DNA of 64,000 bases from Patescibacteria group bacterium (GTDB taxonomy: Bacteria > Patescibacteriota > Patescibacteriia > JACRDY01), in contig JBAZLA010000002.1 of assembly GCA_041650515.1 (NCBI GenBank), forward strand, positions 103,659-167,658, written 5' to 3'. This document shows, piece after piece, positions 5,058-31,300 of the stretch. Below the pieces are notes generated by a model that was given only the letters and a program-made list of their open reading frames with translations, was not told the origin of the DNA and did not search any database. Numbering within the stretch: position 1 is the stretch's first letter; the number at the start of each line of letters is the position of its first letter. Both the position numbers and the translations under genes were made by a program.

Positions 5058-5085
5058 TAAATAATTATATAACTAAATTAAAAAT

Positions 5086-6324: not shown

Positions 6325-6330
6325 AAACCT

Positions 6331-7449: not shown

Positions 7450-7451
7450 AT

Positions 7452-8447
7452 ATGCTATCTAGAAATAAAAAGAAAAAATACACCGCTATTATCCTTGTTA
7501 TTTTTATTGGCTTATTTCTAGCCGCTAACCTTGTTTTAGCAACAGACGAAACTCCGCCCAAATGGACTAAGGACGGCTGTGACCAGGCTGGCGGCTGGTG
7601 GTTTGAAAGTAACTGTTGGGCTAATAACCCCACCATCAACCTGGCTGTACCTTTTGGTGGTCTAAAACCAAATACAACTATTGGCATCGCCCAATATATT
7701 GGTGCAATCTACCGTTTTGGCATCAGCGCGGCCAGTGTCTTGGCGATTGTGATGATTATTATCGGCGGGTTTATCTGGCTAACTTCAGCTGGTAATCCCA
7801 CGCGCGTCACCCAAGCTAAAGGCTACATCGGCGGCGCTCTAGTAGGTCTGGTACTAGCCCTCAGCAGTTATTCCATTCTCAGAACTATTAACCCAGCCCT
7901 AACTGAATTTAGGCCATTACACATTCTCTATGTCGGCGAAGCACCATTGGCGATTGCCACCTGCTGTGAAAAAGACGGCCAAATGAATATTATTTATGAG
8001 GCAAACCAAGAATGCCCCGAGGGTCAAAAAAAAGTCACTTGCCCGTGCAAAGAATTAGCCGCTAACGAATGCCAAGCTGGCATGGTAAAATCAACTAATT
8101 CTGATAAAATTAAAACTGGCTGTTACTCCACTGGCACTTGGATGAATATCGGCGGTGTTTATACTGCTGGCGGACTCCGAACTTGCGCCGAGATAGAATA
8201 CGGTGAAGATTGTTCCAACTTTGGCGGATTATTTGGCGGCCAGGCCTGCCGTAACTACGGCAAAACTTTTACTCACAAAGGTGGCACGGGCATCGTGCCG
8301 GACTATCCTGATCTCTTTAAAAATATCTGCACTTCTGATCCTTGCCAGATCGGCCCCTGTAAGTTTGTACAAACATCCAAAGATAAGGATGGCGTTCTTC
8401 AAAAACTAAACTGGTGTATTGGCGCCAATGAACAACCGCCAGAATAG
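7452..8447 (+). CDS. Paralog 2 of the hairpin family; Cys-rich C-terminal domain
   Basis: Start 3 nt after paralog 1 stop; near-identical N-domain motif GGWWFESNCWANNPTINL and conserved hairpin block IAQYIGAIYRFGISAASVLAIVMIIIGGFIWLTSAGNPTRVTQAKGYIGGALVGL...NPALTEFRPL; divergent Cys-rich C-terminus. Confidence 0.7.
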   Translation: MLSRNKKKKYTAIILVIFIGLFLAANLVLATDETPPKWTKDGCDQAGGWWFESNCWANNPTINLAVPFGGLKPNTTIGIAQYIGAIYRFGISAASVLAIVMIIIGGFIWLTSAGNPTRVTQAKGYIGGALVGLVLALSSYSILRTINPALTEFRPLHILYVGEAPLAIATCCEKDGQMNIIYEANQECPEGQKKVTCPCKELAANECQAGMVKSTNSDKIKTGCYSTGTWMNIGGVYTAGGLRTCAEIEYGEDCSNFGGLFGGQACRNYGKTFTHKGGTGIVPDYPDLFKNICTSDPCQIGPCKFVQTSKDKDGVLQKLNWCIGANEQPPE

Positions 8448-8476: not shown

Positions 8477-9688
8477 ATGTTTATCAAAAAACAAAAAATA
8501 AAACTAAGCCTAGTCACTTTTATCGCTCTGGCTAGTATTTTTGTTTATTTAGCGCCAGCTCTAGCTCAAAGCGGCGAGAACTGTTGTGTTTGTACTGATT
8601 TTGGTGGTAAAGACGTAAAATACGCTCCGGGCGTACCTGATGCTAACGGTAAATGCGACCAACATATCACCTACTCTACTGAGTGCTACGGTGAGGGCTG
8701 CGCCACTACCCCGGATAAAGTTTGCTCAGTCAAAGGTGGCAGCTGCAAAAGCTGGCAAGCGGCCATTGATAAAGTCTCGGGTGAAGAAGCAGCCAAAAAA
8801 GAACTATTACCAGCGACTCCCCCAGTTTTGCAAGTTAATATCCCCGGCCTCACTTTTACCGGCGAAATCAAAGCCACCATGGAAGAAATGGGTCGACGTT
8901 ATTATAATATTCCCTGGCTAGCTGAATATATCGGCGCGGTTTACCGTTTTGGTGTTAGCGTGGCTAGCGTCCTAGCAATCGTTATGATAATTATTGGTGG
9001 CTTTATCTGGATGACCTCGGCTGGTAACCAGGCCCGGATCACCCAAGCTAAGGGTTATATTAGCGGCGCGCTGATTGGCCTCTGTATTGCTTTGGGTAGC
9101 TACGGCGTTTTAAAAGTGGTTAACCCGGCCTTGGTCAATCTCCGGCCACTTAAGATACTGATGATTGAGTTTGAAGACCTAACTGGCGTCTCCACCAATG
9201 ATGATACGGCAGCTGCTAACCTTAGCTTTTCTCCTTCTACGCCGACCGGCGATACTCAACTCCTAAAGTTAAATAATTATAAGGGTCGACCAATTATATT
9301 AGATAAATCAATCGCCAACACAGTTCAACAGATTTTACAACAATTGATTGATGGCGGTTTTCAGGTAAAAGATGCCTCTAGCCATCGCCCCAATCAAGCT
9401 GGTTTTTCTTGGCATAAGTCCGGACTAGCTATTGATATTAATCCAGCTGAAAATCCATGCCCATGTTGCTATACTGGCACAGACTATAAACAATGCTCCT
9501 CTGATAAGTGGAAACCGGGAGTGGGTGGTGCCGTGACTAAAGAAGTAGTGGATGCCTTTAAAGCGCAAGGTTTCTGCTGGGGGGGAGATTGGTGTCATTT
9601 TAAGGATTACATGCATTTTTCGAAACCATCAAATAGCGCCAGCAAAGAGTGCGGAAACGGCGGAAATGGTTGTCCTTATCAGTGGTAA
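8477..9688 (+). CDS. Paralog 3 of the hairpin family with C-terminal peptidase M15 (VanY/phage L-Ala-D-Glu peptidase-like) peptidoglycan hydrolase domain
   Basis: Signal peptide, CCVC Cys-rich N-domain, conserved hairpin block (EYIGAVYRFGVSVASVLAIVMIIIGGFIWMTSAGNQARITQAKGYISGAL), then SSHRPNQAGFSWHKSGLAIDIN ... GFCWGGDWCHFKDYMHF matching Zn-binding S-x-H...D and WGGxW...DxxHF motifs of M15 peptidases. Confidence 0.75.
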   Translation: MFIKKQKIKLSLVTFIALASIFVYLAPALAQSGENCCVCTDFGGKDVKYAPGVPDANGKCDQHITYSTECYGEGCATTPDKVCSVKGGSCKSWQAAIDKVSGEEAAKKELLPATPPVLQVNIPGLTFTGEIKATMEEMGRRYYNIPWLAEYIGAVYRFGVSVASVLAIVMIIIGGFIWMTSAGNQARITQAKGYISGALIGLCIALGSYGVLKVVNPALVNLRPLKILMIEFEDLTGVSTNDDTAAANLSFSPSTPTGDTQLLKLNNYKGRPIILDKSIANTVQQILQQLIDGGFQVKDASSHRPNQAGFSWHKSGLAIDINPAENPCPCCYTGTDYKQCSSDKWKPGVGGAVTKEVVDAFKAQGFCWGGDWCHFKDYMHFSKPSNSASKECGNGGNGCPYQW

Positions 9689-9698
9689 AAATATATCT

Positions 9699-10994
9699 AT
9701 GTTGAATAAATATTTAAAAATTGCGTTACTAACTATACTCTTTTGTTTAGCTCTAAGTCTCCAACCGGTTTTCGCCGGCGAGAGTTGCTGTGTTTGCAAC
9801 CCACTTAAAAATAAAGACAACCAAACTGCTAGTGGCGCGCCAACCGAGGGTAAATGCGACCAATATATTATTTATAGCACTCCAACTTGCCATGGCCAAT
9901 ATTGTCCACCTCAAGGACAACCAACTAATGAATGCCGAATTTTGGAATCTAGCTGCGCTAATGTTAGTAAAGCCATTTTAGAAAAAATCAACGGCCAAAA
10001 TAGCAAACAACCACTGCCTATTGAGGCACCCAATCTCCAAATCGCTATCCCCGGGCTAACTCTTACCCAACCAATCAGTGCTAAGGAAATGCCTAATACC
10101 GGTCGTTTATTCTATTCTATCCCCTGGATTGGCGAGTATATTGGGGCGATTTACCGCTTTGGGGTTAGCGCCGCCAGTATTTTAGCTATAGTGATGATTA
10201 TTATTGGCGGCTTTATCTGGCTCACTTCAGCCGGCAACCCGACCAAGATCACCCAAGCTAAGAGCTATATCAGCGGCGCCTTGCTCGGCTTAATGCTCGC
10301 TTTGGGTAGCTACACTATTCTAAGATTAGTTAATCCCTCGCTAGTCAATCTCAGCTCAATCAAAATTTTGATGATCGAATATGAACAAATGGAACAAGGT
10401 GGCCACGAATCGGATTATTTTCAAGTTAACTCTGGCGCCAAAGGTGCAGTTAGCGCCTATGATAGTGCTCCTTGTCCAACTAATGCTGAGGCGACTAACG
10501 GCTTTCAAGCCTTTATCACTGCTTACTATTCTCCGCCGCCCGGCGAAAAAGGTTTTTATAATAGTTTTGAATGTAACGTGGCGATGCAGTGCTCCTGCAC
10601 CCGCGATTCCAGTAAAACTTGCAGTCATAAATACGGCCCAGGTTGTCTGTTTAAAAAACCAGTAGAACAATTGATCCCTAATATCGACTACTGTACCAAA
10701 ACTGCCAGCGGTTCACCACCAACCTCCTGGGTCACTGTCGCCGCTGATGTTAAAAAGGGCACTGGCAAAGGCTGGGCGGATCATAAAGAATGTTGGAGTT
10801 TTGGCGACACTTTTGAAATTTATGACAGCGGCGGTAATAAAGTCGGCAATACGTGGGTGATTGGCGACCAAGGCTCAGCCATCAAAAGCCGCCACTTTGA
10901 TCTTTATGTCGGTACAGATTTATCCAAGGCTAGGAGCCTGGGTGGCGTTTATACAATCAAATTTACCAAGTGTACCAAATGTCCACTGCGTTAA
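9699..10994 (+). CDS. Paralog 4 of the hairpin family with C-terminal 3D-domain (MltA/YuiC-like) cell-wall hydrolase domain
   Basis: ORF track start 9552 overlaps paralog 3. ATG 9699 gives canonical signal peptide MLNKYLKIALLTILFCLALSLQPVFAGE; CCVC Cys-rich N-domain; conserved hairpin block; C-terminus AFITAYYSPP...CTKTASGSPPTSWVTVAADVKKG...WVIGDQGSAIKSRHFDLYVGTD matches TAY...ITASG...AVDP...DTGGAIKG.RIDLF pattern of 3D domains. Confidence 0.75.
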   Translation: MLNKYLKIALLTILFCLALSLQPVFAGESCCVCNPLKNKDNQTASGAPTEGKCDQYIIYSTPTCHGQYCPPQGQPTNECRILESSCANVSKAILEKINGQNSKQPLPIEAPNLQIAIPGLTLTQPISAKEMPNTGRLFYSIPWIGEYIGAIYRFGVSAASILAIVMIIIGGFIWLTSAGNPTKITQAKSYISGALLGLMLALGSYTILRLVNPSLVNLSSIKILMIEYEQMEQGGHESDYFQVNSGAKGAVSAYDSAPCPTNAEATNGFQAFITAYYSPPPGEKGFYNSFECNVAMQCSCTRDSSKTCSHKYGPGCLFKKPVEQLIPNIDYCTKTASGSPPTSWVTVAADVKKGTGKGWADHKECWSFGDTFEIYDSGGNKVGNTWVIGDQGSAIKSRHFDLYVGTDLSKARSLGGVYTIKFTKCTKCPLR

Positions 10995-15865: not shown

Positions 15866-15937
15866 CGCCCTCAGTAGGAATCGAACCTACATTACGAGAT
15901 CCGCAATCTCGCGTCCTATCCATTGAACGATGGGGGC
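15866..15937 (-). tRNA. tRNA-Arg (anticodon GCG as parsed)
   Basis: Minus-strand sequence GCCCCCATCGTTCAATGGATAGGACGCGAGATTGCGGATCTCGTAATGTAGGTTCGATTCCTACTGAGGGCG folds as cloverleaf: U8, A14, GG18-19, anticodon stem CGAGA/TCTCG, loop TTGCGGA (U33, G37), T-loop TTCGATT; 3' end abuts recG start. Confidence 0.7.
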
Positions 15938-16784: not shown

Positions 16785-16804
16785 AAAGCAGTCTTTTACC
16801 CAAT

Positions 16805-16897
16805 GGAAGGATGGCCGAGTGGCTGAAGGCAGCGGTTTGCTAAACCGTTATAGGGGTTTTATAGCTCCTATCGAGGGTTCGAATCCCTCTCCTTCCG
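16805..16897 (+). tRNA. tRNA-Ser (anticodon GCT)
   Basis: GGAAGGATGGCCGAGTGG... long variable arm, anticodon loop TTGCTAA, T-arm GGTTCGAATCC; 93 nt. Confidence 0.85.
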
Positions 16898-16931: not shown

Positions 16932-17021
16932 GGAGGGATGGCTGAGTGGTTGAAGGCGACGGTCTTGAAAACCGTTGTTCACTTTAGAAGTGAATCGTGG
17001 GTTCGAATCCCACTCCCTCCG
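16932..17021 (+). tRNA. tRNA-Ser (anticodon TGA)
   Basis: GGAGGGATGGCTGAGTGG... long variable arm, anticodon loop CTTGAAA, T-arm GGTTCGAATCC; 90 nt. Confidence 0.85.
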
Positions 17022-17066
17022 CTCTGGCGCGAGATCATAGCAAAATCGTTACCCACCTCAGACAAC

Positions 17067-17759: not shown

Positions 17760-18395
17760 CTATAATCGCGGTGTCTGCCATTCTATCCAGGATACTAACC
17801 AACTATCCCCTTGCTTGGAAAATTTTAATAAAAGATCTTGGTAGGTTATTTCCGGACCGGCCGCGCTCTGCGCTGTCTTGATCCGCTGAGTCGAAACAAC
17901 GACGGTCGCACTGTTGTCTGTTAGCTCTTGGATCTTGGTAGCCAAACCTTGAGTAGTTATACCCATCACCACCGAATCTTTATTTTTGGCTTTTTCTTGG
18001 GTAATATACTTTTCGCTCCACGTTTTGACCTCAGTGGTCATAAACAGCTGTAGATCGCGAATATTTTCATAGTTATTAGTGGTTGAATAACTACCAAAAC
18101 GCGAAGCAAAGTCAGTTGCCAGCCGCTCTAGATTAATCTCTGATTGTTGTTGTTCATCCAATACTGGAGCAGTGTCTTTAGTAATCGCCGCCGGCTGATT
18201 ATCAGCATTAATCACTAACCGATTGCCTGATTTGACGGACAAACTACCATTCATGCTATTGCCAGCCTGGTTAGCCAACTGTTCCGAATTTGGTACTGCC
18301 TCACTCCTCAAAACCACATACAAAATAATTCCTAGAACGATCACCAGAACGGCGATGCCCGCCAAAATTATTTTACCTCGGTTAGATATTATCAT
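17760..18395 (-). CDS. N-terminally anchored extracytoplasmic protein adjacent to VirB4; possible VirB8-like component
   Basis: Single N-terminal TM helix, about 180-aa soluble domain; position directly downstream of VirB4 as for VirB8/PrgL-like proteins; no sequence motif confirmed. Confidence 0.4.
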   Translation of the reverse strand: MIISNRGKIILAGIAVLVIVLGIILYVVLRSEAVPNSEQLANQAGNSMNGSLSVKSGNRLVINADNQPAAITKDTAPVLDEQQQSEINLERLATDFASRFGSYSTTNNYENIRDLQLFMTTEVKTWSEKYITQEKAKNKDSVVMGITTQGLATKIQELTDNSATVVVSTQRIKTAQSAAGPEITYQDLLLKFSKQGDSWLVSWIEWQTPRL

Positions 18396-18413: not shown

Positions 18414-20291
18414 TTAATTTGGTGTTGCGGTTGCGCCGATAGATTGGTCTTCTCCAGTAGCCACCCGCTCATCAAACTCCTTTTTGGCAGCCTCAATCTC
18501 TAACAGCTGCCTTGGATCAGAAGTAATTAATTGATCCTCGGTATATGAGGCAACCACCTTAATCGCCGCATGACGGTTACCAGCAAAAAAGATACCCTCG
18601 CCGACGCCACATTCCAAAAGTAAATACTTTTCGCCCTCGGTAAGCAGAAAAGTTTTTTGAATATGATCAATGGATGATGGCGACTGTTTCATTAATATCT
18701 GCAAAGCTGAATTATTAACAATCGCTTGGCCATAAGGTGACAACAAAAAGTCATTAACATCCTGCGTAATAGTAGTCACCCCTAAATAATATTTACGACA
18801 ACGTTTTACCAGGGCAAAAATAAACCGCGCCGAATCTTCATTCTGCATCAACCACCAGCCTTCGTCAATAACCAAAATTCTTTTCTTGCGCTCAGAACGG
18901 ACGACATTCCAAATATAATTAACTAGATTATAAATAGCTAAAGGCCGCAGCTCGTCCTCTAGATCACGGACAGAAAAACAAACTAACTGATTATTAGTAT
19001 CAACATTAGTCGGACTATTAAACAAACCAGAAAAGGTACCCTCGGTAAACTTCTTAAACCGAGTGGCCATATCCGATCCGCCTTCCATACCCTCTAAAAT
19101 ATCAACCAAGTCTTGAATCAATGGCGGCTCGATGTCTTTAAGATTAGAATCAGCTGTAATGTCTTTTTTGGCATAGGTTTCCAATAGCGCCCGATCTAAA
19201 AGAGCGTCTTCTTTAGCGCTAATTTTGCCTAAAATTAGACGACACAGGCCTTTAATGGTAATAACGGCGCTGCGGATAATATCCTCCGTTTTAAAGTCTT
19301 TCTCCACTGGTCGCGGTAGGTCAAAAGGATTAACCTTGCTCTCAGAAGCGAGCGAAATATTAATATAAGTTCCGCCCACTGCGTCAGAGAGGTGTTTATA
19401 CTCTTTTTCTGGGTCAATAACAATAATATCCACCCCCAACATCAGACTCCTAAGTATCTCCAGTTTGATCGCGTAGCTCTTGCCAGCACCCGAGGTGGCA
19501 AAAACCACCATATTAGCATTCTGCAAACTAAATCGGTCGAACAAAATCAAACTGTTATTATGCCGGTTGATACCGTACATAATGCCATTGTCCGAGCTCA
19601 ACTCAAAAGAAATAAAAGGAAAGGACGAGGCACAGGGGGAGGTATTCATGTTGAAGGTAATTGCTAGTTCATCCAGACCCATTGGCAAAGTTGAATTGAA
19701 TCCTTGTTCGGCCTGATACAGAACTTGGCGAGAATAAACTAAACGCGAACCAAAAATATCTTCCATATCTTCGGTCAGCTCATCCAGCTCTTTCAAACTA
19801 TCGGCATAAATAGTGACATATAAAGCATATTGAAAAAAATGCTCAACACCTTGGGTTAAATCGTCACGCAGCTTCTCGATATCACGCAAAGCGGTTTCTT
19901 TGATCGGGTCACGAGGAGCACCCTTGTCGCGATCAGCAAAAATTTCTGCTTCTAGGTTACCCACTCTTTTTTTGAGCTGCTTGAGAATAAGCGCTGCCCT
20001 GACCGGATAAAAGAAGATCGAAACATCTAAAGGGTGGTTAAAGTTGATAATCGGCGAAAACCAACCAATAGTGATATAACGGGGATAGCTAATCACAAAC
20101 ATCGTCCGGACATATTTGGTGCCCAGAATAATATAGCTCGGCTTTACCTCTAAAGCAGCGGGAGCGATTAGATCAATAATCGAAATTTCGCCTTCGCGAT
20201 AACGACGCTCTTCTTCAATCACCTCCTTATTCAAAACGACCTGCGCCTGCTGTTCATTTTCTGGTTGTTTCTTTTTAAAAAATATCGACAT
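18414..20291 (-). CDS. virB4: VirB4/TrbE/PrgJ-family conjugative T4SS ATPase, C-terminal ATPase part
   Basis: Walker A VVFATSGAGKSYAI, Walker B ILVIDEGWWLMQ, typical VirB4 C-terminal domain; ATG in frame 3 nt after the TAA of the upstream ORF. Confidence 0.85.
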   Translation of the reverse strand: MSIFFKKKQPENEQQAQVVLNKEVIEEERRYREGEISIIDLIAPAALEVKPSYIILGTKYVRTMFVISYPRYITIGWFSPIINFNHPLDVSIFFYPVRAALILKQLKKRVGNLEAEIFADRDKGAPRDPIKETALRDIEKLRDDLTQGVEHFFQYALYVTIYADSLKELDELTEDMEDIFGSRLVYSRQVLYQAEQGFNSTLPMGLDELAITFNMNTSPCASSFPFISFELSSDNGIMYGINRHNNSLILFDRFSLQNANMVVFATSGAGKSYAIKLEILRSLMLGVDIIVIDPEKEYKHLSDAVGGTYINISLASESKVNPFDLPRPVEKDFKTEDIIRSAVITIKGLCRLILGKISAKEDALLDRALLETYAKKDITADSNLKDIEPPLIQDLVDILEGMEGGSDMATRFKKFTEGTFSGLFNSPTNVDTNNQLVCFSVRDLEDELRPLAIYNLVNYIWNVVRSERKKRILVIDEGWWLMQNEDSARFIFALVKRCRKYYLGVTTITQDVNDFLLSPYGQAIVNNSALQILMKQSPSSIDHIQKTFLLTEGEKYLLLECGVGEGIFFAGNRHAAIKVVASYTEDQLITSDPRQLLEIEAAKKEFDERVATGEDQSIGATATPN

Positions 20292-20294
20292 AGC

Positions 20295-20993
20295 TTATTC
20301 TTCAACTTTAATTTTATCAACCTCTATCATTTTTTCCGACTCCGATAACTGCGGGTTATAAGAATTATAATACAACTCAATCAAACTCTGGGTGTCGAGC
20401 GGCGTGGCTTGCAGGCCCATACTATTCAAACCGCCAATCACGTGACTAACCCGCTGATATAAATCTCGACGTCTCTGATTAAACCTTTCTTCGCCGAGTT
20501 TGATCAAACTCGTGGGAGTAAACAGCTCCAATAGCCTTGACCAAAAACCGCGTTGCTTGTCCGATAAGGGATTATAAGGCACAACAATATAAAACTTCTT
20601 AGTCATAATATCGCCAATTTTGACCAGTTCGGCCACAAAATTACGGTAGTCTTTAATCTGCATTTTTAGCAGTTCATTAATCTGTTCTTTCTCAAATTTT
20701 TTTAACCTATCTAAATAATCATCAATATCAAACCGACGCGACTGGATAACAATCTGAATAGGAAAATCAATTGAATTTAAAAAGCTCATATAAGCGGTAA
20801 CAATCGCTTGTTGCTCATCAGACGACTTAAGCGCAAAATTAATGCTAGCGACCATAACAACCGCTCGCAAAGTTCCATCTTTAAGCACCACGCAGTCATT
20901 ACGAACCTCGGCAATCGGTACGTACTTCTTGGTTGACGGAGTAGATTTGTTTGTTGCTCGCTTACTCTTCATAGATTGATTTATAAATACCAC
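20295..20993 (-). CDS. VirB4 N-terminal domain (CagE/TrbE/VirB N-domain) encoded as separate ORF
   Basis: PIAEVRNDCVVLKDGTLRAVVMVASINFALKSSDEQQAI matches N-terminal region of VirB4 proteins; 232 + 625 aa equals normal VirB4 length; same frame as the ATPase ORF, separated only by TAA-GCT. Confidence 0.65.
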   Translation of the reverse strand: MVFINQSMKSKRATNKSTPSTKKYVPIAEVRNDCVVLKDGTLRAVVMVASINFALKSSDEQQAIVTAYMSFLNSIDFPIQIVIQSRRFDIDDYLDRLKKFEKEQINELLKMQIKDYRNFVAELVKIGDIMTKKFYIVVPYNPLSDKQRGFWSRLLELFTPTSLIKLGEERFNQRRRDLYQRVSHVIGGLNSMGLQATPLDTQSLIELYYNSYNPQLSESEKMIEVDKIKVEE

Positions 20994-21399
20994 CAGTATT
21001 AACTACCAACGATAGCTCCTCCAGGTGTGAACTCGACATTAATTTTTTGGGCGCAATTTTTCTGACCGAACTAACCGCCACTGGACGCTGTAAAATTTCT
21101 CTAATCTCTTGATCGGTTAAACTTTTATCCCAAACTTTAAGCTTCGGTTTTTTAAATGTCTCGATAACATTAAGTAAAAAATAATGAAACGGTCGCCCAT
21201 TAATCTTAGCAAAAGCAATAGTGCCAAAGATAGCAAAAATCAACACCGTCGACACAACAAAAGTCCAAAAATCAAACAACTTATAACAAACAAAAATCAG
21301 CATCAAGGCAACAATACTAATAATAAACTGACGGACGGTAATCGGACCAAACACCCGCGGCTCAACCTCGATAAATTGGGGAACAAGAAACTGTTCCAT
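20962..21399 (-). CDS. PrgI/VirB3-like small membrane protein
   Basis: FGPITVRQFIISIVALMLIF followed by a second TM helix, matching the GLTxRQ + two-TM signature of PrgI-family VirB3 analogues; overlaps VirB4-N start. Confidence 0.6.
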   Translation of the reverse strand: MEQFLVPQFIEVEPRVFGPITVRQFIISIVALMLIFVCYKLFDFWTFVVSTVLIFAIFGTIAFAKINGRPFHYFLLNVIETFKKPKLKVWDKSLTDQEIREILQRPVAVSSVRKIAPKKLMSSSHLEELSLVVNTGGIYKSIYEE

Positions 21400-21418: not shown

Positions 21419-22675
21419 CTAATATTCTAACATTTTATTCAATTTAACTAAAGCCCGCCACTCGGCCGTGTCTAGGGTCGGTAGTCCTTGTTTTTGTCGA
21501 TTACTAATAATCGCTTCTACCGACACGCCCTGCTCCATGCTGTCTTTGCCTAATGATAAATAAGTCCGATAAACTTCACTTTGTTTCCAGGCTTCGATTC
21601 CCATGATCCGCTTAGAAAAAGAGTCAGCTTCTAACAAATCAATCTTTTCCCTGATCCTTATAATTGCTCGGTCTGGGTCTCGATCTAACTGCTTAAAATC
21701 AATCAATCTCAAGGTGCGTAACTCATCAACTGGTCCAATCAACCGAGTTGGAATTTTAACGTCGGTAATTTTTTCGCCTTTAGCCAAAGATACACCAACT
21801 GGTGGCTTAGACTGATTAACTGACGGTTCAACCTTTTGATCAGATTCGACTACTTTTTTAGGTCTTAACCAAGCCAAAAATTTTTTCTTGGTCGGCATAA
21901 TCTTTGACTTTTGAGGGGCAATAAACGGTTTAACCTCTTTAGAAATATATCGATCCGACTCAGCCTTTTTAACTGACATTTTATTCTCTGCCGCTTGGGG
22001 TTTAGCGGTCAAAATTTCGGTGACGCTTTTAACAATCGGCTTAGCCGCAGTAATAAGCGGCTTGGCAACTACCGGCTTAATATCAACAACTTTCGGCGCT
22101 GGGTTGAGTTGATTAATCGACGATACTGGCGGAATTTTGACCGACGATGGAACATTGGCTTTAGTTTTAATCACTACTGGTGGCGGAGGAGCGATCTCGT
22201 GGTCTAGCTCAGACTGAGAAAAAATATGCACTTGATCATTTGGTGAGCTACGCTCAATCTTTGGCAATACAGGGGCGGCTGATCGTTGGGTGGGTAAAAT
22301 AGCACCTTGTCCCCGACTATTAACGGTCGACTGTTTTCTAAATAGATTGATAATTTGATCAGCCACCTGACTAGTTAAACCCAAACCACCGACTGTTACC
22401 TCTTTAATTAAAACGTCTTTAGTCTGTAGATCGGTCCGAATACCCTTAGCACCAGCCAAAATAGCATTTTTAAAACGACGATCCAAAACTTCGTCCTCGA
22501 ATCGTAAATTAAGTTTTTGACTAATCTCGTTACTTAGACGTGAATATTGATCTTCAGGTTGATTAATCGAACTAACCAACGACCCAGCTTGGCTCCCCAA
22601 AACTTTGTAACCACCGGTTGATTCTTTAACTAGAATTTCGTCTTGGTCGGAAATGTTTTTTTGATTATTAATCAT
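21419..22675 (-). CDS. Hypothetical protein with central Pro/Lys/Val-rich region
   Basis: 418-aa ORF, no TM, PPPPVVIKTKANVPSSVKIPPVSS low-complexity centre, conserved-looking C-terminal domain; in T4SS-like cluster. Confidence 0.5.
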   Translation of the reverse strand: MINNQKNISDQDEILVKESTGGYKVLGSQAGSLVSSINQPEDQYSRLSNEISQKLNLRFEDEVLDRRFKNAILAGAKGIRTDLQTKDVLIKEVTVGGLGLTSQVADQIINLFRKQSTVNSRGQGAILPTQRSAAPVLPKIERSSPNDQVHIFSQSELDHEIAPPPPVVIKTKANVPSSVKIPPVSSINQLNPAPKVVDIKPVVAKPLITAAKPIVKSVTEILTAKPQAAENKMSVKKAESDRYISKEVKPFIAPQKSKIMPTKKKFLAWLRPKKVVESDQKVEPSVNQSKPPVGVSLAKGEKITDVKIPTRLIGPVDELRTLRLIDFKQLDRDPDRAIIRIREKIDLLEADSFSKRIMGIEAWKQSEVYRTYLSLGKDSMEQGVSVEAIISNRQKQGLPTLDTAEWRALVKLNKMLEY

Positions 22676-22713: not shown

Positions 22714-23895
22714 CTACTTTAAACCAGCTTGTTTTTTTAATATTTCAGCTTTATCAATTTTTTCCCAAGGGAAACAACCGTCTTTGGGCGCTCGGCCAAA
22801 ATGACCATAGGTAGCGGTTTTTTTATAAATCGGCCGTAATAAATCAAGACTGGTAATAATCCCCCGCGGCGTCAATTCAAAATTATTTTTTATCAATTCT
22901 AACAGTTTGGTCTCTTCCACTTTGCCAGTACCAAAGGTATTAACCATAATAGAAACTGGCTCAGGATAGCCAATAGCATAGGCTAGCTGAACTTCACAAC
23001 GATTCGCTAACCCCGCCGCTACTATATTCTTGGCAATGTAGCGCGCCATATAAGCACCAGAGCGATCTTGTTTGTTAGGGCCCTTACCCGAAAAACAACC
23101 ACCACCGTGCGCCCCAACCCCGCCATAAGTATCAACAATAATCTTACGACCAGTCAGGCCAGTATCGCCATGAGGACCACCAATGACAAAACGTCCGGTT
23201 TCGTTGATATAATAATGAGTCTGGTCATCAAGATATTTACCGCCGATCGGCTTAATCACTTTTTCAATAATTGACTCGCGTAGATCTTCCAGCTCAATTT
23301 CTGGATCATGCTGAGCGGCAATAACTACGGCCTCAATTCTGGTAGGTAAATTATCAACATACTCAACTGTTACTTGCGATTTACCATCCGGCCGTAAAAA
23401 GGGCAATTCACCATTATGACGCACTTCAGCTAGCTTTTTAGTCAACTGGTGAGCCAAAACGATCGGCAAGGGCATTAACTCTGGAGTTTCACTAGTAGCA
23501 TAACCAAACATCATTCCCTGATCCCCCGCTCCCATCTCTTGGTGTAAACCTCCGCCCACTTGCTCACCTTGAGCGATATCCGGGCTTTGTTCATGAATAA
23601 CATTAATTACGGCGCAGCTTTTATAATCAATGCCATAATCAGCATTGTCATAACCAATCTCTTTAAGCGTATCACGAACAATCGTCTGAATATCAACGTA
23701 AGTCTGAGTAGTCACCTCGCCGCCGACTAAAACCATGCCGGTCGTAGTAAAACATTCACAGCAACAATGACCCCCTGGGTCCTCTTTTAAAATCGCATCC
23801 AGCACAGCGTCAGAGATTTGATCGCAGATTTTGTCTGGATGCCCTTCGGTTACTGATTCTGATGTAAATAAATGTTTCCCACTCGGTCCCCGCAT
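22714..23895 (-). CDS. metK: S-adenosylmethionine synthetase
   Basis: [47 protein letters not shown] signature motifs. Confidence 0.92.
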
Positions 23896-25288: not shown

Positions 25289-28285
25289 TTATTTACCCTT
25301 GCCAAAATATTTTCGGAATAAACTTGATAAAGAACCGTATAAATCAGTACCTTGTTTATTCTTAAGCGAAGCTATCTCCTGAGCCAAACGTTCGCCCTCG
25401 GCACTACCCATTTTTTTGGCCATATTCTCCATATTCTTAGCTAATTCTTGGGCTAATCGACTAGTCTGGGCGTTAGAGTCGCCTCCTTTTAGATCTTTAA
25501 TTGCGTCAGTTAATTTGCCGACATTTTCTTCCATTTTGGTTAATAATTCTCTGCTGCCTTCTGGATAGGTCTCTCTTGACCGAGGTTCTCTGGCTTCAGA
25601 TTTGGTTCCACCGGCTGTTTCTTCTTCATCTTCAGTAAACGGTCTATTAGTTGCTGGATTAATAATTCGACTTCCCGCCGGCTCGGGCTTACCACCTTCA
25701 GGAGTTTTATTACTACTTAATAATCCGCCTAAAACTTTACTAAACCGTTCAGCATCTCCATCACTAAATTTCCCACCTTTCAATATTGGCTCTAATTTAG
25801 CCTGTATATCTTTACTCCCAGTTCGGCCGAAATATTGATAATTTAAAACATCCATCAAAAGCTTTGGATTTTTCTTATGCTCAAGTTGTAACCTTCTGAG
25901 TGTTTCCCCTTTACTGCGGTAATTTCCATCGGGATCTGTCCCATCCATAATCTCACCGGTCTTACGATCAATCCAACCCGACTCATTCTCTGCAATACTA
26001 CCTTGACGTAAAACATGTCGCCCAAAACGGGTCTGACCGCGATGGAGTTCAGCGGAAAACTCTGGACCCAAATATTTATACATCGCCCGATTATACATGC
26101 TCCCGCCTTCGTAACCTCTAGTATCGATGGAGGAATCACCAGTTTCCTTATTATAAGCCCTATTGACAACATTATGAGAAGCAAAAGATTTTCTAAAAGT
26201 CGCTGTATCCATCTTGGCAGCGTTGCCCTGTACATCTTTTATTTTCGCTATATTATTTAGTAATAATGGCAAGCCGCTTTGAGAATCCTTAAGTACTGTT
26301 GACTGCTCCCAATGGCCAATTTTTCTGGCGGTTTGGGTCATAGTCTGCATCCGCCACAAACCGCGCTTTTCATCCTCAGAAGCATTTTGAGTATTATCGA
26401 TTTGTTTTTGCTTGACTTTAGCCCCATATTGTCCCCATAGTTCCTCCCGAGCAGCATCTTCAGCATCAACTCGGGTGTCATATTCCCCACTTTTAAATTT
26501 ATTCTCAATTAGTGCCTGTAAATCAACTTTATTTTCACTGAGCATATCCTCAAAAATCTTTTCCGGATCAAATTTTTCCCTACCCAAATCAAGTAATTTC
26601 ATATCCATAATCTTATAAGTCTCATCAGTACCCTTTAGGGCGTGATTATAATCATCAAAACCCCACGATTTAGCCGTTGCTTCTCTTTCTTCTGGGTTTA
26701 ATTTAGCCCATTTTTTAATAACAGCATCATAAACATCATCCTTATTGCCTTCCCGAGTAGCTAAACCTAAATGGCCAGATGTCCGGTCATAACCTTCCCG
26801 GGTTTTGTCTTGCATCGCCCGCAATACGCCCTCAACCATATTTTCCAGGTTAAGGTCGCCGCCTAATTCTTCTTCGGCTTTTTTCTCCGCGGCGGCCTGG
26901 ATCTTCAACTCAGTCATCTGCTCGATCGGCGGCATGGCTTTCTCTCCCACCATCGCCTTCTGCCACCATTTATTACCTCTACCTTCGGCACGCTGCTTGG
27001 ACTTTTCATACATTTCATCACCACGCTTGCCGACGCCTTTCCAAAAACTCGGCGTTAGAAAAGCCAACCGACTCTCACCCACGGACGAAGCAATACGCTG
27101 ACCGATTCTTTTAGATCCTAGAACCAAGCCGGCCAACGGCGCACCAGCTACCTTCGTTCCCAACCCCTGCGCCTTAGCCACAAAAGCCGAACCGAGTTTG
27201 CCACCAGCGACACCCAGCTGGCCAGTCATCGACATACCCGCTACCAGCATACCAATCGAAATAATAAATTTTCCCATAAAACCCCAGCTGCCGGCATCAG
27301 TCGAACCAGCCTGAGGCACTTGGTCACCACCCGTTATCGGCGTACTGGCATCGCCACCCGGACTTTTTAGATCAGCATCAATACTACCAAAAACCGCTAG
27401 CGATAACCAAATAAAGAAGGCTAGGATCGGGCCAGTAATAACATATTTAGTAAACTGCTGCGACCACTGCCGGGCATAACTCTGACCCGAGGGAAAAGAC
27501 ATCAGTAAGAAAAAGACTGGGGAAAGAATAATCAAGAACCAAAGCATAATCACCCGAAAAGCCAGAATAATCACCATAATAACCAGAATCGCCAACAAAA
27601 ACACCGAGTAAATTAAAGCCAAAAACATTGAACCGGCAATACCCGATGGTGTTAATTGAGCATCGGTGACGTTACCACTCACCGACTGGGTAAGAGCAGC
27701 GCTGGCGCCCGACATGCTTAATAGCTTAGTAATACCGGTGGCGTTAATAAAATTACCTGGCCCGACATCTTTAAAAGCATTAACAAAGGTCAACATCACC
27801 ACCTGGGAAGCATCAATGGCTAAGCCGCAAATCGTTTTGGAAAAATTAACCAAAATCGCCAGAATAATCATCTTGGGCAGTAAACGCTTATAATTATAGC
27901 TTTCGATTTTAAGAATCGTGGCAAAGGCAATGATCAGGAAAATCAAAACAAAAAACATATTAACCACATCACGAACCACCACCCAGCCGATTACGACCGC
28001 CCCGGAGCTGATAAAAGTATTATACTGAGCAATCCATAGTAGCACCCAAAAAACCACCATGATCAACCCACCGATCAGCGCCACGAAGATCATTAGAATC
28101 ATCGCTACCACCAAAGCCACTACTAAGCCCGGCACGCCGCTACTTTGCGCGCCAGCTGATGACATATTAAGCAAAACGGCTGACAAAACTACTGCCAACA
28201 CTATACCAGCTAGCCGATAACGACTCCCAAGTACCAATAATTTCTGAGTAAACCGATCAAATATTTTTTTGATTGAGTTGATCAT
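25289..28285 (-). CDS. VirB6/TrbL/PrgH-like polytopic membrane protein with about 600-aa hydrophilic C-terminal extension
   Basis: Seven or more TM helices in first about 380 aa, Gly/Ser-rich loop, long charged C-terminal domain; location between VirB4 and giant secreted protein. Confidence 0.5.
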   Translation of the reverse strand: MINSIKKIFDRFTQKLLVLGSRYRLAGIVLAVVLSAVLLNMSSAGAQSSGVPGLVVALVVAMILMIFVALIGGLIMVVFWVLLWIAQYNTFISSGAVVIGWVVVRDVVNMFFVLIFLIIAFATILKIESYNYKRLLPKMIILAILVNFSKTICGLAIDASQVVMLTFVNAFKDVGPGNFINATGITKLLSMSGASAALTQSVSGNVTDAQLTPSGIAGSMFLALIYSVFLLAILVIMVIILAFRVIMLWFLIILSPVFFLLMSFPSGQSYARQWSQQFTKYVITGPILAFFIWLSLAVFGSIDADLKSPGGDASTPITGGDQVPQAGSTDAGSWGFMGKFIISIGMLVAGMSMTGQLGVAGGKLGSAFVAKAQGLGTKVAGAPLAGLVLGSKRIGQRIASSVGESRLAFLTPSFWKGVGKRGDEMYEKSKQRAEGRGNKWWQKAMVGEKAMPPIEQMTELKIQAAAEKKAEEELGGDLNLENMVEGVLRAMQDKTREGYDRTSGHLGLATREGNKDDVYDAVIKKWAKLNPEEREATAKSWGFDDYNHALKGTDETYKIMDMKLLDLGREKFDPEKIFEDMLSENKVDLQALIENKFKSGEYDTRVDAEDAAREELWGQYGAKVKQKQIDNTQNASEDEKRGLWRMQTMTQTARKIGHWEQSTVLKDSQSGLPLLLNNIAKIKDVQGNAAKMDTATFRKSFASHNVVNRAYNKETGDSSIDTRGYEGGSMYNRAMYKYLGPEFSAELHRGQTRFGRHVLRQGSIAENESGWIDRKTGEIMDGTDPDGNYRSKGETLRRLQLEHKKNPKLLMDVLNYQYFGRTGSKDIQAKLEPILKGGKFSDGDAERFSKVLGGLLSSNKTPEGGKPEPAGSRIINPATNRPFTEDEEETAGGTKSEAREPRSRETYPEGSRELLTKMEENVGKLTDAIKDLKGGDSNAQTSRLAQELAKNMENMAKKMGSAEGERLAQEIASLKNKQGTDLYGSLSSLFRKYFGKGK

Positions 28286-28315: not shown

Positions 28316-31300
28316 TTAATAATCGGCTTTAATTACCGCAATCACACCGTTGTAGCTGGTCCAAACTTTATTCTGATCGATAAATGCTGACGCTGAACAA
28401 TTGTGTGTGCCAGAACCAGCGCCTAGCCAATAATCTTCGACACAAGCTTTGCCATTGCCGGGAGTTGTCGCCCCACAGTCAGCACCGCAGATTCCCCAGT
28501 TATCAATCACCTGCACCCGCGGCTTGTAAACGCAACAAGGATTATGATTTTCTGGCAGGTCCTCTAAACCAACAACATGCGCATAGCAGTCATCCCAATA
28601 ATAAAGAGCACCGTCATCAACTATACAATCCGGATTATAAATATAAAGATTATCAAACGACCAAGGTGAAGCAACACAAGCATCACCAGAACTACCAAAA
28701 TTGGTACCATCACAACTTGATCGATGATTTTGGTAAGAGTCACCTAGCTGTCCCAAACCCAAACTACCTAGGTCCGCTTCATAATCCTTACCGCCCCAAT
28801 CAATATTTATATATCGTAATGGCATCTGACTACCATTAGAGTTATAAGCATAGAAGGAAAGGCTGGCCCAATACTGGCCGTAGCCAACCTCTGGCTCTGC
28901 CGCGTCGCCTTGAAAATAATTAACCGAAATACTCCGAGCACTGTGCTCTTTCCAACCGCCGATCGTTTCATCAAAAACTGCGGCCCTAACCACTGGCGCC
29001 TGACCCATTGTCGCCCGATTATCCCAGCCATAGAGCGAGAATGTCGGCGCAAAAGCTATTCCACCGGATGTTGGAATACCTAGATAAGAAAAAGGAGAAC
29101 TCATGGCAAATAGCTTAGAAATTTTATCATCAATAATTGCCATACGACCAGTAGGCGATAATAAATCATTAGCAGTCATTATGCCAGGAGGATTAAGACC
29201 AAGACAATAAGCACCATCACCGCAATCAGCGGCCTCAGAACAATCACTATCACTATAGTAATCAAAACCGTCACCCCCAAAACAAGTTGCTTTACCACAA
29301 TAAACAAGTAACGGAACACCAGGACGTGGGTGACAACTATAAGGTGATCCCCCTTCTCGCTGATCTGCTCCTTCTGGCGCTCTCTGTATATACCATCCTC
29401 CCAGAGCAGCAACAGAATCTAAATCGGCTTTGCCAAAGGGTTCATTATTCTGAGGATAACGATATTCTAATGTAGGGACATCAAAATCTTCAAACTCTTT
29501 TAGGTAGTTGGTGTTGGCGGCATGAATATAAGTCGAATCAACCTCTTGCGTTACCTGCACAGCTATCTCGCAATATTCTTTAAAAACAAATACTGGATTA
29601 AGTGCGATAGCACCATTCCAACCATTAACCCCACCTTTAGACTCACAATCGTTTGCTGGCCCTCCCGCCCCATCTTTATGTTCAACCTTAATCTGAATAT
29701 ATTCCAAATCATCACCTGACCAATTAATAACAACTTCTAAGCAGATATTACTCTGCCTTGTCGGATTAGAAAATAAAACTTTTTCCATATTGGGCGCATA
29801 AAACCAATCACCATTGGGTAGGTAAACATAAGCTTGGTAAGCATACAGTGGTGATCCTCCCTCCGATACCGCTATGTTCCACCAAGCATCATAAGCAGAC
29901 GTGTTGTCATTATAATACTTATCGTCTGGTTTATAATAAATAACTCGATCTTCATAATCATTAAAGAAAACGATAGCTCCATCACCCTCGACACCAGTAA
30001 AAATATTTTGAGGTGTTGGTCTAACTGGACAACCAGCATCCCCTAAACAACCGATTTCATCTAAAATTAGAGCCTTCACTTCACTTTTTCTAATTTTTCG
30101 GCCGCTCGGTTTAAGAGTGTATTTATAACCACAATGAGTATCATAGCTAGTAGTTTCTGGAAAAACACTTAAAGCGTACTTATATTTACTCCAATCCCAA
30201 CCTGCATCGCCGTGATGGCCACTCTCACCTAAATACCTCTCATATCGACACTCGCTCCAAGAAACATCGCCAGAAGCATAGGAGATATTGTAAGGTGGAT
30301 CTTCCATCCAGGTATCACTTTCGGTCTTAGCCCACTGGTTGACATATGGAGCATTACCCTTTTCTTGCAAACAATAAAGTTGGTCTTCCGACGGTTGCCA
30401 ACCAGCGGCTGGAACACTATTAAAGACATCAGGCTCATTAGCCACCAAATCCAAGGGCATCCATAATAAGCAGGCTAATTTATTTGGATCAGCATTAACC
30501 GCTTTTCTTCTATCGCTTTGTAAACAATACCCTCGCCAACCAACATATAAATCTTGTCGACTAGGTTTGACACAAACATCATTATCTGAAGGTGTTGCCC
30601 CCACTGGGTTACCACCACTATCATAATAATTACCTTGATCCGGTGACAAATACCCAGGTTCATTGATTTCAGCCATACATTCTTGATCATTAGCACAAGA
30701 ATCACCAGCCGCCTTACCCGATGTTTCGTCGACTTCAGTACAATAATGATCACTATTTGTGTCTAGATCAAAATAAGCGGTGGGGCCAGAATCTCCCTGC
30801 CATTTTTCATAAAAACAGTCACAATCATTACCATCAATTTCAGAACAGAAATTAGATCCCGCAAAAGATGAATTACCTTTCAAAGTTTCGGTACCAGGGA
30901 AGGGCGAGGTAGTTTCTGGATAACCACGACAACTTTTAGTGGCTTTACCAATAACCAACCCACTAGAATTTTCACCCAAGCCCAAACTCTTCCCAGTATC
31001 AGAAAGATGGGTCAAATAATAATCACCAGAACTTTTATCGCACTTACCGCTCGAACAATCACTATTATTTATACAACTTTGATATGGCGATACAGTACAT
31101 TTACCGAATGGCACCTGCTGCAGGCTCCAAGTCGGATAGAGCCAAGGCACCGAGTAACCAGAATAATCATAACCAGCCCAACCCAGATCGCGCTCCGTAT
31201 ATTTATCTATACTCAGATTATCATAAGCGCTAAATCCCGGCTCAGCACTGATCGGCTTAGCACTAATACATTGTAGGGTCGAACTAGTTCCCTGATCGAA

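What the first reader, a model, noticed from the sequence alone, without database searches (positions are those of the whole stretch)
20283..20300. VirB4 is split into N-domain and ATPase ORFs by a single in-frame TAA followed by a reinitiation ATG
The 232-aa ORF encoding the VirB4 N-terminal domain ends ...KIKVEE-TAA. Exactly one codon later (GCT), in the same frame, ATG starts the 625-aa ATPase ORF (minus strand 20297..20289: TAA GCT ATG). Together they equal a normal VirB4 length. The options are a deliberate two-polypeptide VirB4 made by termination-reinitiation, UAA read-through to give a full-length fusion, a recent nonsense mutation (incipient pseudogene), or a sequencing error. The position at a domain boundary and the adjacent ATG favour a functional split.
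Basis: seen in the sequence. Interest (0 to 1): 0.65.

Follow-up and report, generated by a model that had tools for sequence, protein, structure and literature searches.

The report
Conserved two-gene VirB4 (TrsD-like plus ATPase)
The stop codon that seems to cut the secretion-system ATPase VirB4 in two is the normal boundary between two old, separately conserved genes found across Patescibacteria and in Gram-positive plasmids, so it is real but ordinary and already published.

Summary
On the minus strand, a 225-aa ORF (232 aa from an upstream GTG) ends ...KVEE-TAA (20297-20295). GCT follows, then the ATG (20291-20289) of a 625-aa VirB4-type ATPase. An independent assembly has the same junction.

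It is not a lesion or a recoding site. All 120 best homologues of the small ORF are stand-alone proteins of 212-251 aa at 58-74% identity. In 79 related loci holding both genes, none is fused. All three stop codons occur. The relative frame is random (24/29/26). Spacers run from an 8-nt overlap to 509 nt, with a median of 9 nt. The in-frame layout here simply follows from a 3-nt spacer.

The pair matches TrsD/TrsE of staphylococcal plasmid pSK41, with the same order: VirB3-like, TrsD, ATPase. The same split occurs in Bacillota and haloarchaeal plasmids. A 2025 paper reports TrsD, a remote homologue of the VirB4 N-terminus, as the most abundant T4SS component in Patescibacteria and usually next to virB4.

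A functional split is supported. Nonsense mutation, sequencing error and read-through are rejected. Translational coupling is plausible but untested and not special to this junction. Low interest.

The parts
20295..20972 (-). TrsD-like gene (Pfam PF26593 'TraC-like'), 225 aa. It is a stand-alone homologue of the first ~180-230 residues of fused VirB4/TraC ATPases. Stop TAA at 20297-20295.
   Evidence: Searches give the sequence and ORF; 100% identical public protein P0001 of 225 aa, and all top 120 homologues are 212-251 aa; matches VirB4_CagE profile positions 3-175/792, VirB4_plasma 91-233/894, CD1110 4-81/752 and TrsD/TraD 9-142/201; hhalign against pSK41 TrsD gives probability 81% and E 1.2e-5 over 180 columns; the AF2 model (pLDDT 81) has its top 14 PDB fold hits all on TrwK/VirB4 of R388.
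20289..20297 (-). Gene junction TAA-GCT-ATG: stop of the TrsD-like gene, a 3-nt spacer, then the start of the VirB4 ATPase gene.
   Evidence: The junction is identical in independent assembly L089. Four of 79 orthologous loci also have a 3-nt spacer, 11 have 1 nt and 8 have 2 nt. The local RNA is no more structured than shuffled sequence (z +1.19).
18414..20291 (-). VirB4-type T4SS ATPase gene, 625 aa, equivalent to TrsE. Walker A GAGKS is at residues 268-272 (19490-19476). Walker B LVIDEGW is at residues 473-479 (18875-18855).
   Evidence: Pfam P-loop_TraG 1.1e-26, AAA_10, DUF87. CD1110-family VirB4 at 346 bits against a cut-off of 325, covering profile positions 183-730/752; 4AG5 VirB4 C-terminal domain E 3.8e-49 (query 233-590); TrwK 446-741. 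BLASTP against pSK41 TrsE E 1e-48, aligned 39-579 to 35-617; motif positions.
20962..21399 (-). PrgI family (VirB3-like) small membrane protein gene, 145 aa. It overlaps the start of the TrsD-like gene by 11 nt.
   Evidence: PF12666 PrgI E 2.1e-7, 31.8 bits against a cut-off of 27. A PrgI gene sits immediately upstream of the N-module in the locus of the fused relative (L090-L092), and a small VirB3-sized ORF occupies that position in pSK41.
25289..28285 (-). Possible VirB6-like polytopic membrane protein gene, 998 aa. Its membership in the same T4SS-like cluster is weakly supported.
   Evidence: PF04610 TrbL/VirB6 E 4e-4, 20.6 bits, below the gathering score of 25.9.
21419..22675 (-). 418-aa ORF of unknown function directly upstream of PrgI. 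Possible T4SS accessory component (inferred from position only).
   Evidence: no family hit. The same 418-aa gene precedes PrgI in L089.
17760..18395 (-). 211-aa ORF of unknown function, 18 nt downstream of the ATPase gene. Its N-terminus is hydrophobic by inspection (no transmembrane prediction was run). Possible T4SS accessory component (inferred from position only).
   Evidence: no family hit.

Best explanation
This is the normal boundary between two conserved genes of the Patescibacteria type IV secretion-like system. The first gene is TrsD-like: the N-terminal module of VirB4 encoded as its own polypeptide. The second is a VirB4/TrsE-type ATPase that lacks that module. The operon order is PrgI(VirB3)-TrsD-VirB4. 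The split is ancient and shared with pGO1/pSK41-type monoderm conjugation systems. It is maintained by selection and falls where a fused relative has a disordered linker. Inferred mechanism: both proteins are made from one mRNA. The 3-nt stop-start spacing, an A/U-rich unstructured leader and a genome almost without Shine-Dalgarno motifs make it likely that ribosomes finishing the TrsD-like ORF often restart at the adjacent ATG (translational coupling), alongside independent initiation. The two products then assemble non-covalently at the membrane with PrgI/VirB3 and reconstitute the N-terminal region that fused VirB4 proteins carry in one chain.
For: Shown here:
- The junction is real and reproduced in an independent assembly.
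- All 120 best homologues of the small ORF are 212-251 aa at 58-74% identity.
- Among the best 150 representatives at 50% clustering, only one is full-length.
- 79 of 79 related loci with both genes are split. Stops are TAA 57, TAG 15, TGA 7. Relative frames are 24/29/26. Spacers run from -8 to +509 nt with a median of 9.
- The two ORFs cover VirB4 profiles colinearly and in complementary fashion.
- The N-module model has TrwK/VirB4 as its only significant fold matches.
- The N-module profile aligns over its full length with pSK41 TrsD. The ATPase aligns end to end with pSK41 TrsE. pSK41 has the same gene order.
- The same split is present in a Pontibacillus plasmid and a Halobacterium plasmid.
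- The alignment of 43 homologues has 9 invariant and 27 nearly invariant columns.
- Walker A and B motifs are intact.

From the literature: PMC12102498 reports 2,272 TrsD homologues in 2,221 Patescibacteria assemblies, 1,664 of them next to VirB4. It describes TrsD as remotely homologous to the N-terminal part of VirB4 and lists the TrsD homologue of S. epibionticum ML1 as essential. PMC10633639 reports that the T4SS cluster is essential for epibiotic growth.
Against: - No direct evidence here, or in the papers read, that the two proteins bind each other.
- No direct evidence that translation of the ATPase is coupled to termination of the upstream ORF.
- 29 of 79 orthologues have spacers over 30 nt, so coupling cannot be a general requirement.
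- The match to NCBIfam TrsD/TraD is far below its cut-off (31 against 200 bits), and hhalign probability is only 81%. Homology to TrsD proper is remote.
- The local Pfam scan gave no hit for the small ORF, although precomputed annotation lists PF26593.
- In Peribacteria and Peregrinibacteria loci (L005, L006), the TrsD-like gene has no VirB4 within 4 kb downstream. The module may therefore also act apart from VirB4.
Confidence: 0.9

Rival explanations
1. Obligatory termination-reinitiation. The ATPase can be translated only by ribosomes that have just terminated at the TAA of the TrsD-like ORF, which fixes a 1:1 or lower stoichiometry.
For: The spacer is 3 nt here. 42 of 79 orthologous junctions have spacers of 10 nt or less, including 11 with TAA-N-ATG and 3 overlaps. 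There is no Shine-Dalgarno motif before the ATPase ATG.
Against: Almost no gene in this window has a Shine-Dalgarno motif, so its absence carries no information. The junction RNA is unstructured (z +1.19), so the ATG is open to independent initiation. 29 of 79 orthologues have spacers over 30 nt and 13 have over 100 nt. Short spacers are common throughout this window, with 15 of 43 pairs at 10 nt or less.
Confidence: 0.15
2. Recent nonsense mutation, making this an incipient VirB4 pseudogene.
For: The stop is in frame with the downstream ORF, and the summed length (225 + 625 aa) equals that of a normal VirB4.
Against: 0 of 79 orthologous loci are fused. Homologues down to about 35% identity are stand-alone proteins ending at the same position. 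Both ORFs are intact with conserved motifs. The same split is found in pSK41 and other plasmids.
Confidence: 0.01
3. Sequencing or assembly error that created a false stop.
For: None beyond the a priori possibility in a metagenome-assembled genome.
Against: The junction is identical in an independent Logan assembly of SRR8542065. The protein end coincides with the conserved end of hundreds of homologues.
Confidence: 0.01
4. Programmed UAA read-through, or a reassigned UAA, producing a full-length VirB4 fusion in addition to the two separate proteins.
For: The arrangement is in frame with only one intervening codon. Rare natural fusions exist: P0247, 898 aa, found on 5 contigs from at least 3 samples.
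Against: The frame is not conserved (24/29/26) and all three stop codons are used in orthologues. TAA is the commonest stop of long ORFs in the window, 26 of 46. A class-I release factor gene is present. There is no stable downstream RNA structure. The natural fusion carries a linker of about 100 aa rather than a direct join.
Confidence: 0.03

Closest known systems
TrsD/TrsE (TraD/TraE) of Staphylococcus aureus conjugative plasmids pSK41/pGO1 (MPF_FATA type IV secretion, pGO1 subclass)
   Same: The gene order is the same: a small VirB3-like membrane protein, then a ~225-aa TrsD, then a ~625-670-aa VirB4-like ATPase, with overlapping or closely spaced genes. The N-module profile aligns with TrsD over 180 columns. 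The ATPase aligns with TrsE from its very N-terminus to its end (39-579 against 35-617, E 1e-48), so the cut is at the same place.
   Different: Sequence similarity to TrsD is remote: 31 bits against the NCBIfam cut-off of 200, and 23% identity in the hhalign alignment. The locus here is chromosomal in a Patescibacterium. The part of the window I scanned showed no relaxase or coupling protein, but the ORFs between about 60.7 and 63.9 kb and a few small ORFs elsewhere were not scanned against any family library. In Patescibacteria the system is thought to serve the epibiotic lifestyle rather than plasmid transfer (PMC10633639, PMC12102498).
TrsD-VirB4 pair of the Patescibacteria T4SS as described by Quinonero-Coronel et al. 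2025 (PMC12102498)
   Same: This is the same thing: a TrsD homologue encoded next to virB4 and prgI/virB3 in a Patescibacteria genome. The paper reports 2,272 TrsD homologues, of which 1,664 are associated with VirB4.
   Different: Nothing substantive. The junction statistics compiled here (frames, stops, spacers) and the rare fused variant with a linker do not appear in the passages I read.
Single-chain VirB4/TraC/TrwK ATPases (for example R388 TrwK, PDB 7O41/8RTB; the CD1110 family)
   Same: The N-module plus the ATPase ORF together cover these profiles colinearly. The fold of the N-module matches TrwK. The ATPase domain matches 4AG5 and TrwK.
   Different: Here the first ~180-230 residues are a separate polypeptide. 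VirB3-VirB4 fusions found in some systems are the opposite trend.

Membership tests
VirB4-family T4SS ATPase (625-aa ORF) | P-loop NTPase domain homologous to the VirB4 C-terminal domain, with Walker A and Walker B motifs | tested here: met
   4AG5 E 3.8e-49; TrwK E 4.5e-6. CD1110-family VirB4 at 346.4 bits against a cut-off of 325. GAGKS at 268-272 and LVIDEGW at 473-479.
VirB4-family T4SS ATPase (625-aa ORF) | Complete N-terminal region in the same polypeptide (profile covered from position ~1) | tested here: not met
   the ATPase ORF starts at profile position 183/752 (CD1110), 241/792 (VirB4_CagE) and 292/894 (VirB4_plasma). The missing part is supplied by the upstream ORF.
VirB4-family T4SS ATPase (625-aa ORF) | Encoded next to a VirB3/PrgI-type small membrane protein | tested here: met
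   PrgI (PF12666) at 31.8 bits against a cut-off of 27, located at 20962-21399 two genes upstream.
TrsD/TraD family (NCBIfam NF041427) | Score at or above the curated family cut-off | tested here: not met
   31.4 bits, E 1.6e-7, against a cut-off of 200. It is a remote relative and not a member of the narrowly defined family.
TrsD/TraD family (NCBIfam NF041427) | Full-length homology to prototype TrsD of pSK41 | tested here: met
   hhalign probability 81%, E 1.2e-5, 180 columns, covering 23-219 of the profile against 31-217 of 227. The homology is remote but spans the full length.
TrsD/TraD family (NCBIfam NF041427) | A ~200-230-aa protein encoded between a VirB3-like gene and a VirB4-like ATPase that lacks the N-module | tested here: met
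   for the window. for pSK41 (trsD 227 aa, then a 672-aa ATPase aligned from residue 35).
Pfam PF26593 (TraC-like) | Significant match to the family model | tested here: inconclusive
   Precomputed annotation lists PF26593 for the identical protein P0001 and for all 120 homologues. The local Pfam-A hmmscan at E <= 0.01 returned no family, possibly because the local copy lacks the model.
Programmed stop-codon read-through / recoding site | In-frame arrangement and stop identity conserved among orthologues | tested here: not met
   relative frames 24/29/26; stops TAA 57, TAG 15, TGA 7.
Programmed stop-codon read-through / recoding site | Stimulatory RNA structure at or after the stop | tested here: not met
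   MFE -11.1 kcal/mol against a shuffle mean of -14.4, z +1.19.
Pseudogene by nonsense mutation | Orthologues carry an uninterrupted gene, and the interrupted copy shows relaxed constraint | tested here: not met
   0 of 79 fused; strong conservation of the stand-alone protein.
Translational coupling by termination-reinitiation | Stop and start within a few nucleotides or overlapping | tested here: met
   3-nt spacer.
Translational coupling by termination-reinitiation | Tight juxtaposition conserved in orthologues | tested here: inconclusive
   42 of 79 at 10 nt or less, but 29 of 79 above 30 nt. Short spacers are also generally common in this window.
Translational coupling by termination-reinitiation | Downstream translation depends on upstream translation | not testable with these tools
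   This needs reporter or ribosome-profiling experiments.

The most novel reading that the evidence does not exclude
The most novel reading not excluded concerns why the split exists. Splitting VirB4 into a TrsD-like docking module and a detachable ATPase may be a functional adaptation of pGO1-type and Patescibacteria systems. The N-module would stay bound to PrgI/VirB3 in the membrane while the ATPase hexamer cycles on and off. Tight stop-start coupling (spacer of 10 nt or less in about half of lineages) would set their stoichiometry. Lineages with TrsD-like genes far from virB4 (Peribacteria, Peregrinibacteria, Gracilibacteria) may have recruited the module for another partner.
Probability: 0.2. 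Interest if true: 0.35.

Novelty: already known. Interest (0 to 1): 0.12.

Why it matters
This matters mainly for annotation. Automated pipelines and human readers can mistake this junction for a broken VirB4. It should instead be annotated as a TrsD-like gene followed by a VirB4/TrsE-type ATPase gene. The T4SS-like system of Patescibacteria is essential for epibiotic growth in the one species tested (PMC10633639), so knowing that its VirB4 N-module is a separate polypeptide helps anyone modelling or purifying the complex. The arrangement itself is already published (PMC12102498) and has a long-known counterpart in pGO1/pSK41.

Tried and rejected
- Local Pfam-A scan of the small ORF gave no hit. 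NCBIfam and the precomputed Pfam annotation were informative instead.
- Profile search of the small-ORF alignment against PDB sequences found nothing at E <= 1. The fold search was needed.
- The genome-contig scan with a single protein returned only 6 loci. The metagenome scan with an alignment gave the 80 loci used for the statistics.
- A literature search for the phrase 'split VirB4' returned nothing. The relevant term is TrsD.
- I considered stop-codon reassignment and rejected it. TAA ends 26 of 46 long ORFs, and a release-factor gene is present.
- I considered an mRNA hairpin that would sequester the ATPase start codon, a classic coupling device, and rejected it. The region folds less stably than shuffled sequence.
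- I considered whether the missing Shine-Dalgarno motif argues for reinitiation and judged it uninformative. Nearly all genes in the window lack one.
- In the automatic junction table, two loci (L036, L041) got a spurious upstream ATG. I corrected them by eye to the ATG 1 nt after the stop before tabulating.
Full report
**1. The observation**

The minus strand reads ...AAA GTT GAA GAA TAA GCT ATG TCG ATA TTT.... TAA lies at 20297-20295, GCT at 20294-20292 and ATG at 20291-20289. The mechanical ORF list gives 20295..20993(-) as 232 aa from a GTG, and 18414..20291(-) as 625 aa.

The realistic start of the small ORF is the ATG at 20972. This gives a 225-aa protein that is 100% identical to a public protein annotated in a Patescibacteria MAG (P0001). 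With that start, the small ORF overlaps the upstream PrgI gene by 11 nt.

An independent Logan assembly of run SRR8542065 carries the same gene pair and the identical junction.

**2. What the two ORFs are**

The 625-aa ORF is a VirB4-type ATPase.
- Pfam gives P-loop_TraG, AAA_10 and DUF87.
- NCBIfam gives the CD1110-family VirB4 above its curated cut-off, at 346 against 325 bits.
- The crystallised VirB4 C-terminal domain 4AG5 matches at E 3.8e-49 over residues 233-590.
- Walker A (GAGKS, 268-272) and Walker B (LVIDEGW, 473-479) are intact.

The small ORF is the VirB4 N-terminal module encoded separately.
- It matches the beginning of VirB4 family profiles: VirB4_CagE positions 3-175 of 792, VirB4_plasma 91-233 of 894, and CD1110 4-81 of 752.
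- The ATPase ORF starts where those matches end: CD1110 position 183, VirB4_CagE 241 and VirB4_plasma 292.
- An AlphaFold model built from 43 homologues (pLDDT 81.3) has TrwK/VirB4 chains of the R388 system as its 14 best PDB fold matches (probability 0.96-1.0, E 1e-3 to 5e-2). Nothing else is comparable.

One correction applies. About 230 residues of the ATPase ORF precede the region equivalent to the VirB4 C-terminal domain. The cut is inside the canonical N-terminal region and not at the boundary between the N-terminal domain and the ATPase domain.

**3. Is it a lesion, an error, a recoding site or a gene boundary?**

Homologues are stand-alone proteins.
- The small ORF has 5,715 homologues. 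The best 120, at 58-74% identity, are all 212-251 aa.
- In an exhaustive search of 50%-identity representatives there are 2,696 hits. Of the best 150, down to about 35% identity, all but one are shorter than 450 aa.

I collected 6 loci from species-representative genomes and 80 metagenome loci, then located both genes in each. In the 79 loci that hold both genes:

| Property | Result |
|---|---|
| Fused genes | 0 of 79 |
| Stop codon | TAA 57, TAG 15, TGA 7 |
| Frame of ATPase ORF relative to small ORF | 0 / +1 / +2 in 24 / 29 / 26 loci |
| Spacer range | 8-nt overlap to 509 nt, median 9 nt |
| Spacer of 1 / 2 / 3 nt | 11 / 8 / 4 loci |
| Spacer of 10 nt or less | 42 loci |
| Spacer over 30 nt | 29 loci |

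The in-frame stop-codon-ATG layout in this window is just one draw from an ordinary distribution of operon junctions. In the window itself, 15 of 43 same-strand neighbouring gene pairs are 10 nt or less apart.

These results reject the alternatives.
- **Recent nonsense mutation:** rejected by the uniformly split orthologues.
- **Sequencing error:** rejected, also by the independent assembly.
- **Programmed read-through:** rejected. It would need a conserved frame. In addition, TAA is the commonest stop in the window (26 of 46 long ORFs), a class-I release factor gene is present, and the junction RNA is less structured than shuffled controls (z +1.19).

**4. Relatives outside Patescibacteria**

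A translated search of PLSDB found stand-alone homologues of the small ORF in 114 plasmids. Most are from Bacillus, Clostridium, Geobacillus and Paenibacillus, with some from haloarchaea.
- In a Pontibacillus plasmid, a 274-aa homologue overlaps the start of a 621-aa CD1110-family VirB4.
- In Halobacterium pSTJ001, a 369-aa homologue abuts an 853-aa ATPase.

NCBIfam also gave a sub-threshold match to the TrsD/TraD family. In S. aureus pSK41 the order is a small 135-aa ORF, then trsD (227 aa), then a 672-aa DUF87 ATPase (TrsE).
- The profile of the window's N-module aligns with TrsD over 180 columns (probability 81%, E 1.2e-5).
- The window's ATPase aligns with TrsE from residue 39 to 579 against 35 to 617 (E 1e-48).

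The two systems are therefore cut at the same place.

**5. Fused relatives exist but are rare**

P0247 (898 aa) is a genuine fusion. It was recovered on 5 contigs from at least 3 samples, with PrgI upstream. The window's N-module aligns to its residues 1-223 and the ATPase to residues 323-892. Between them lies a Pro/Ala/Gly-rich linker of about 100 residues.

Other homologues carry long low-complexity C-terminal tails: P0152, P0155 and P0158. The cut therefore coincides with a flexible linker, which explains why both split and fused forms can work.

**6. Literature**

Quinonero-Coronel et al. 2025 (PMC12102498) make several relevant statements.
- TrsD is present in the pGO1 subclass of MPF_FATA.
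- TrsD was the most abundant T4SS component in Patescibacteria: 2,272 homologues in 2,221 assemblies, with 1,664 associated with VirB4.
- Gracilibacteria are an exception to that association.
- The homologue in S. epibionticum ML1 is listed as essential.

Wang et al. 2023 (PMC10633639) showed that the T4SS cluster is essential for epibiotic growth and resembles Gram-positive conjugative systems. The finding is therefore already known.

My loci L005 and L006 (Peribacteria and Peregrinibacteria) have a TrsD-like gene but no VirB4 within 4 kb downstream. This fits the exception noted in the 2025 paper.

**7. How it most likely works**

- **Shown:** these are two conserved genes in the order PrgI, TrsD-like, VirB4, with both reading frames intact.
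- **Inferred from the R388 structures, in which the VirB4 N-terminal region contacts VirB3 (my own knowledge, not tested here):** the TrsD-like protein provides the membrane-proximal, VirB3-contacting part of VirB4 in trans.
- **Inferred from the sequence:** the 3-nt spacer makes translational coupling likely, given the A/U-rich unstructured leader and a genome in which almost no gene has a Shine-Dalgarno motif. Long spacers in many orthologues show that coupling is not obligatory for the system.

**8. Context of the window**

The neighbouring genes on the minus strand, in order of decreasing coordinate, are:
- a weak VirB6/TrbL-like 998-aa ORF (25289-28285);
- a 430-aa ORF of unknown function;
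- metK;
- a 418-aa ORF of unknown function;
- PrgI;
- the TrsD-like gene;
- VirB4;
- a 211-aa ORF of unknown function;
- a ComF-type phosphoribosyltransferase.

The nearest named homologues come from Buchananbacteria, Falkowbacteria and Magasanikbacteria.

**9. Verdict**

The supposedly special features (in-frame stop, reinitiation ATG, domain boundary) are incidental or imprecise. The arrangement is published and has a long-known counterpart in pGO1/pSK41. Interest is low and the novelty rating is 'already known'.

Noticed in passing
window 22714-23895 (-): A metK (S-adenosylmethionine synthetase) gene sits inside the T4SS-like cluster. On one side are the weak VirB6-like 998-aa ORF and a 430-aa unknown ORF. 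On the other is the block of 418-aa unknown, PrgI, TrsD-like and VirB4. metK is called from the translation only; the ORF was never scanned against a family library.
   Followed up: no
window 28316-36625 (-) and 41706-51269 (-): Two giant ORFs of 2,769 aa and 3,187 aa. The first has only a weak CBM_4_9 hit. The second has nine FG-GAP_3 repeats plus Kre9_KNH, DUF4215 and CarboxypepD_reg domains, so it is presumably a surface protein.
   Followed up: partly
whole window (gene starts listed): Almost no gene has a Shine-Dalgarno-like motif. Leaders are A/T-rich, which suggests mostly SD-independent initiation in this genome.
   Followed up: partly
window 3831-8447 (+): Four consecutive, tightly packed ORFs (408, 412, 372 and 331 aa) have no Pfam match at E <= 1e-5.
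   Followed up: no
P0247 (loci L090-L092); P0152, P0155, P0158: P0247 is a rare true fusion of the TrsD-like module and VirB4 (898 aa), with a Pro/Ala-rich linker of about 100 aa, seen in at least 3 samples. Several stand-alone TrsD-like proteins carry disordered low-complexity C-terminal tails of about 200 aa.
   Followed up: partly
L005 4001-4696 and L006 4001-4678: Peribacteria and Peregrinibacteria genomes have a TrsD-like gene but no VirB4 ATPase within 4 kb downstream. This fits the Gracilibacteria exception mentioned in PMC12102498.
   Followed up: partly
L088 (Halobacterium hubeiense pSTJ001 145118-148788): A haloarchaeal plasmid has a 369-aa homologue of the TrsD-like module directly abutting an 853-aa ATPase annotated as 'TraM recognition domain-containing protein', next to a type I-B CRISPR-Cas locus. 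The split architecture therefore also occurs in archaeal plasmids.
   Followed up: no
window 15866-15937 (-), 16804-16897 (+), 16932-17022 (+): tRNA-Arg(GCG), tRNA-Ser(GCT) and tRNA-Ser(TGA) genes lie just downstream of the ComF-like gene that ends the cluster.
   Followed up: no
window 8477-9688 (+) / 9552-10994 (+): Two long same-strand ORFs overlap by 137 nt. The start of the second is probably further downstream than the first ATG.
   Followed up: no
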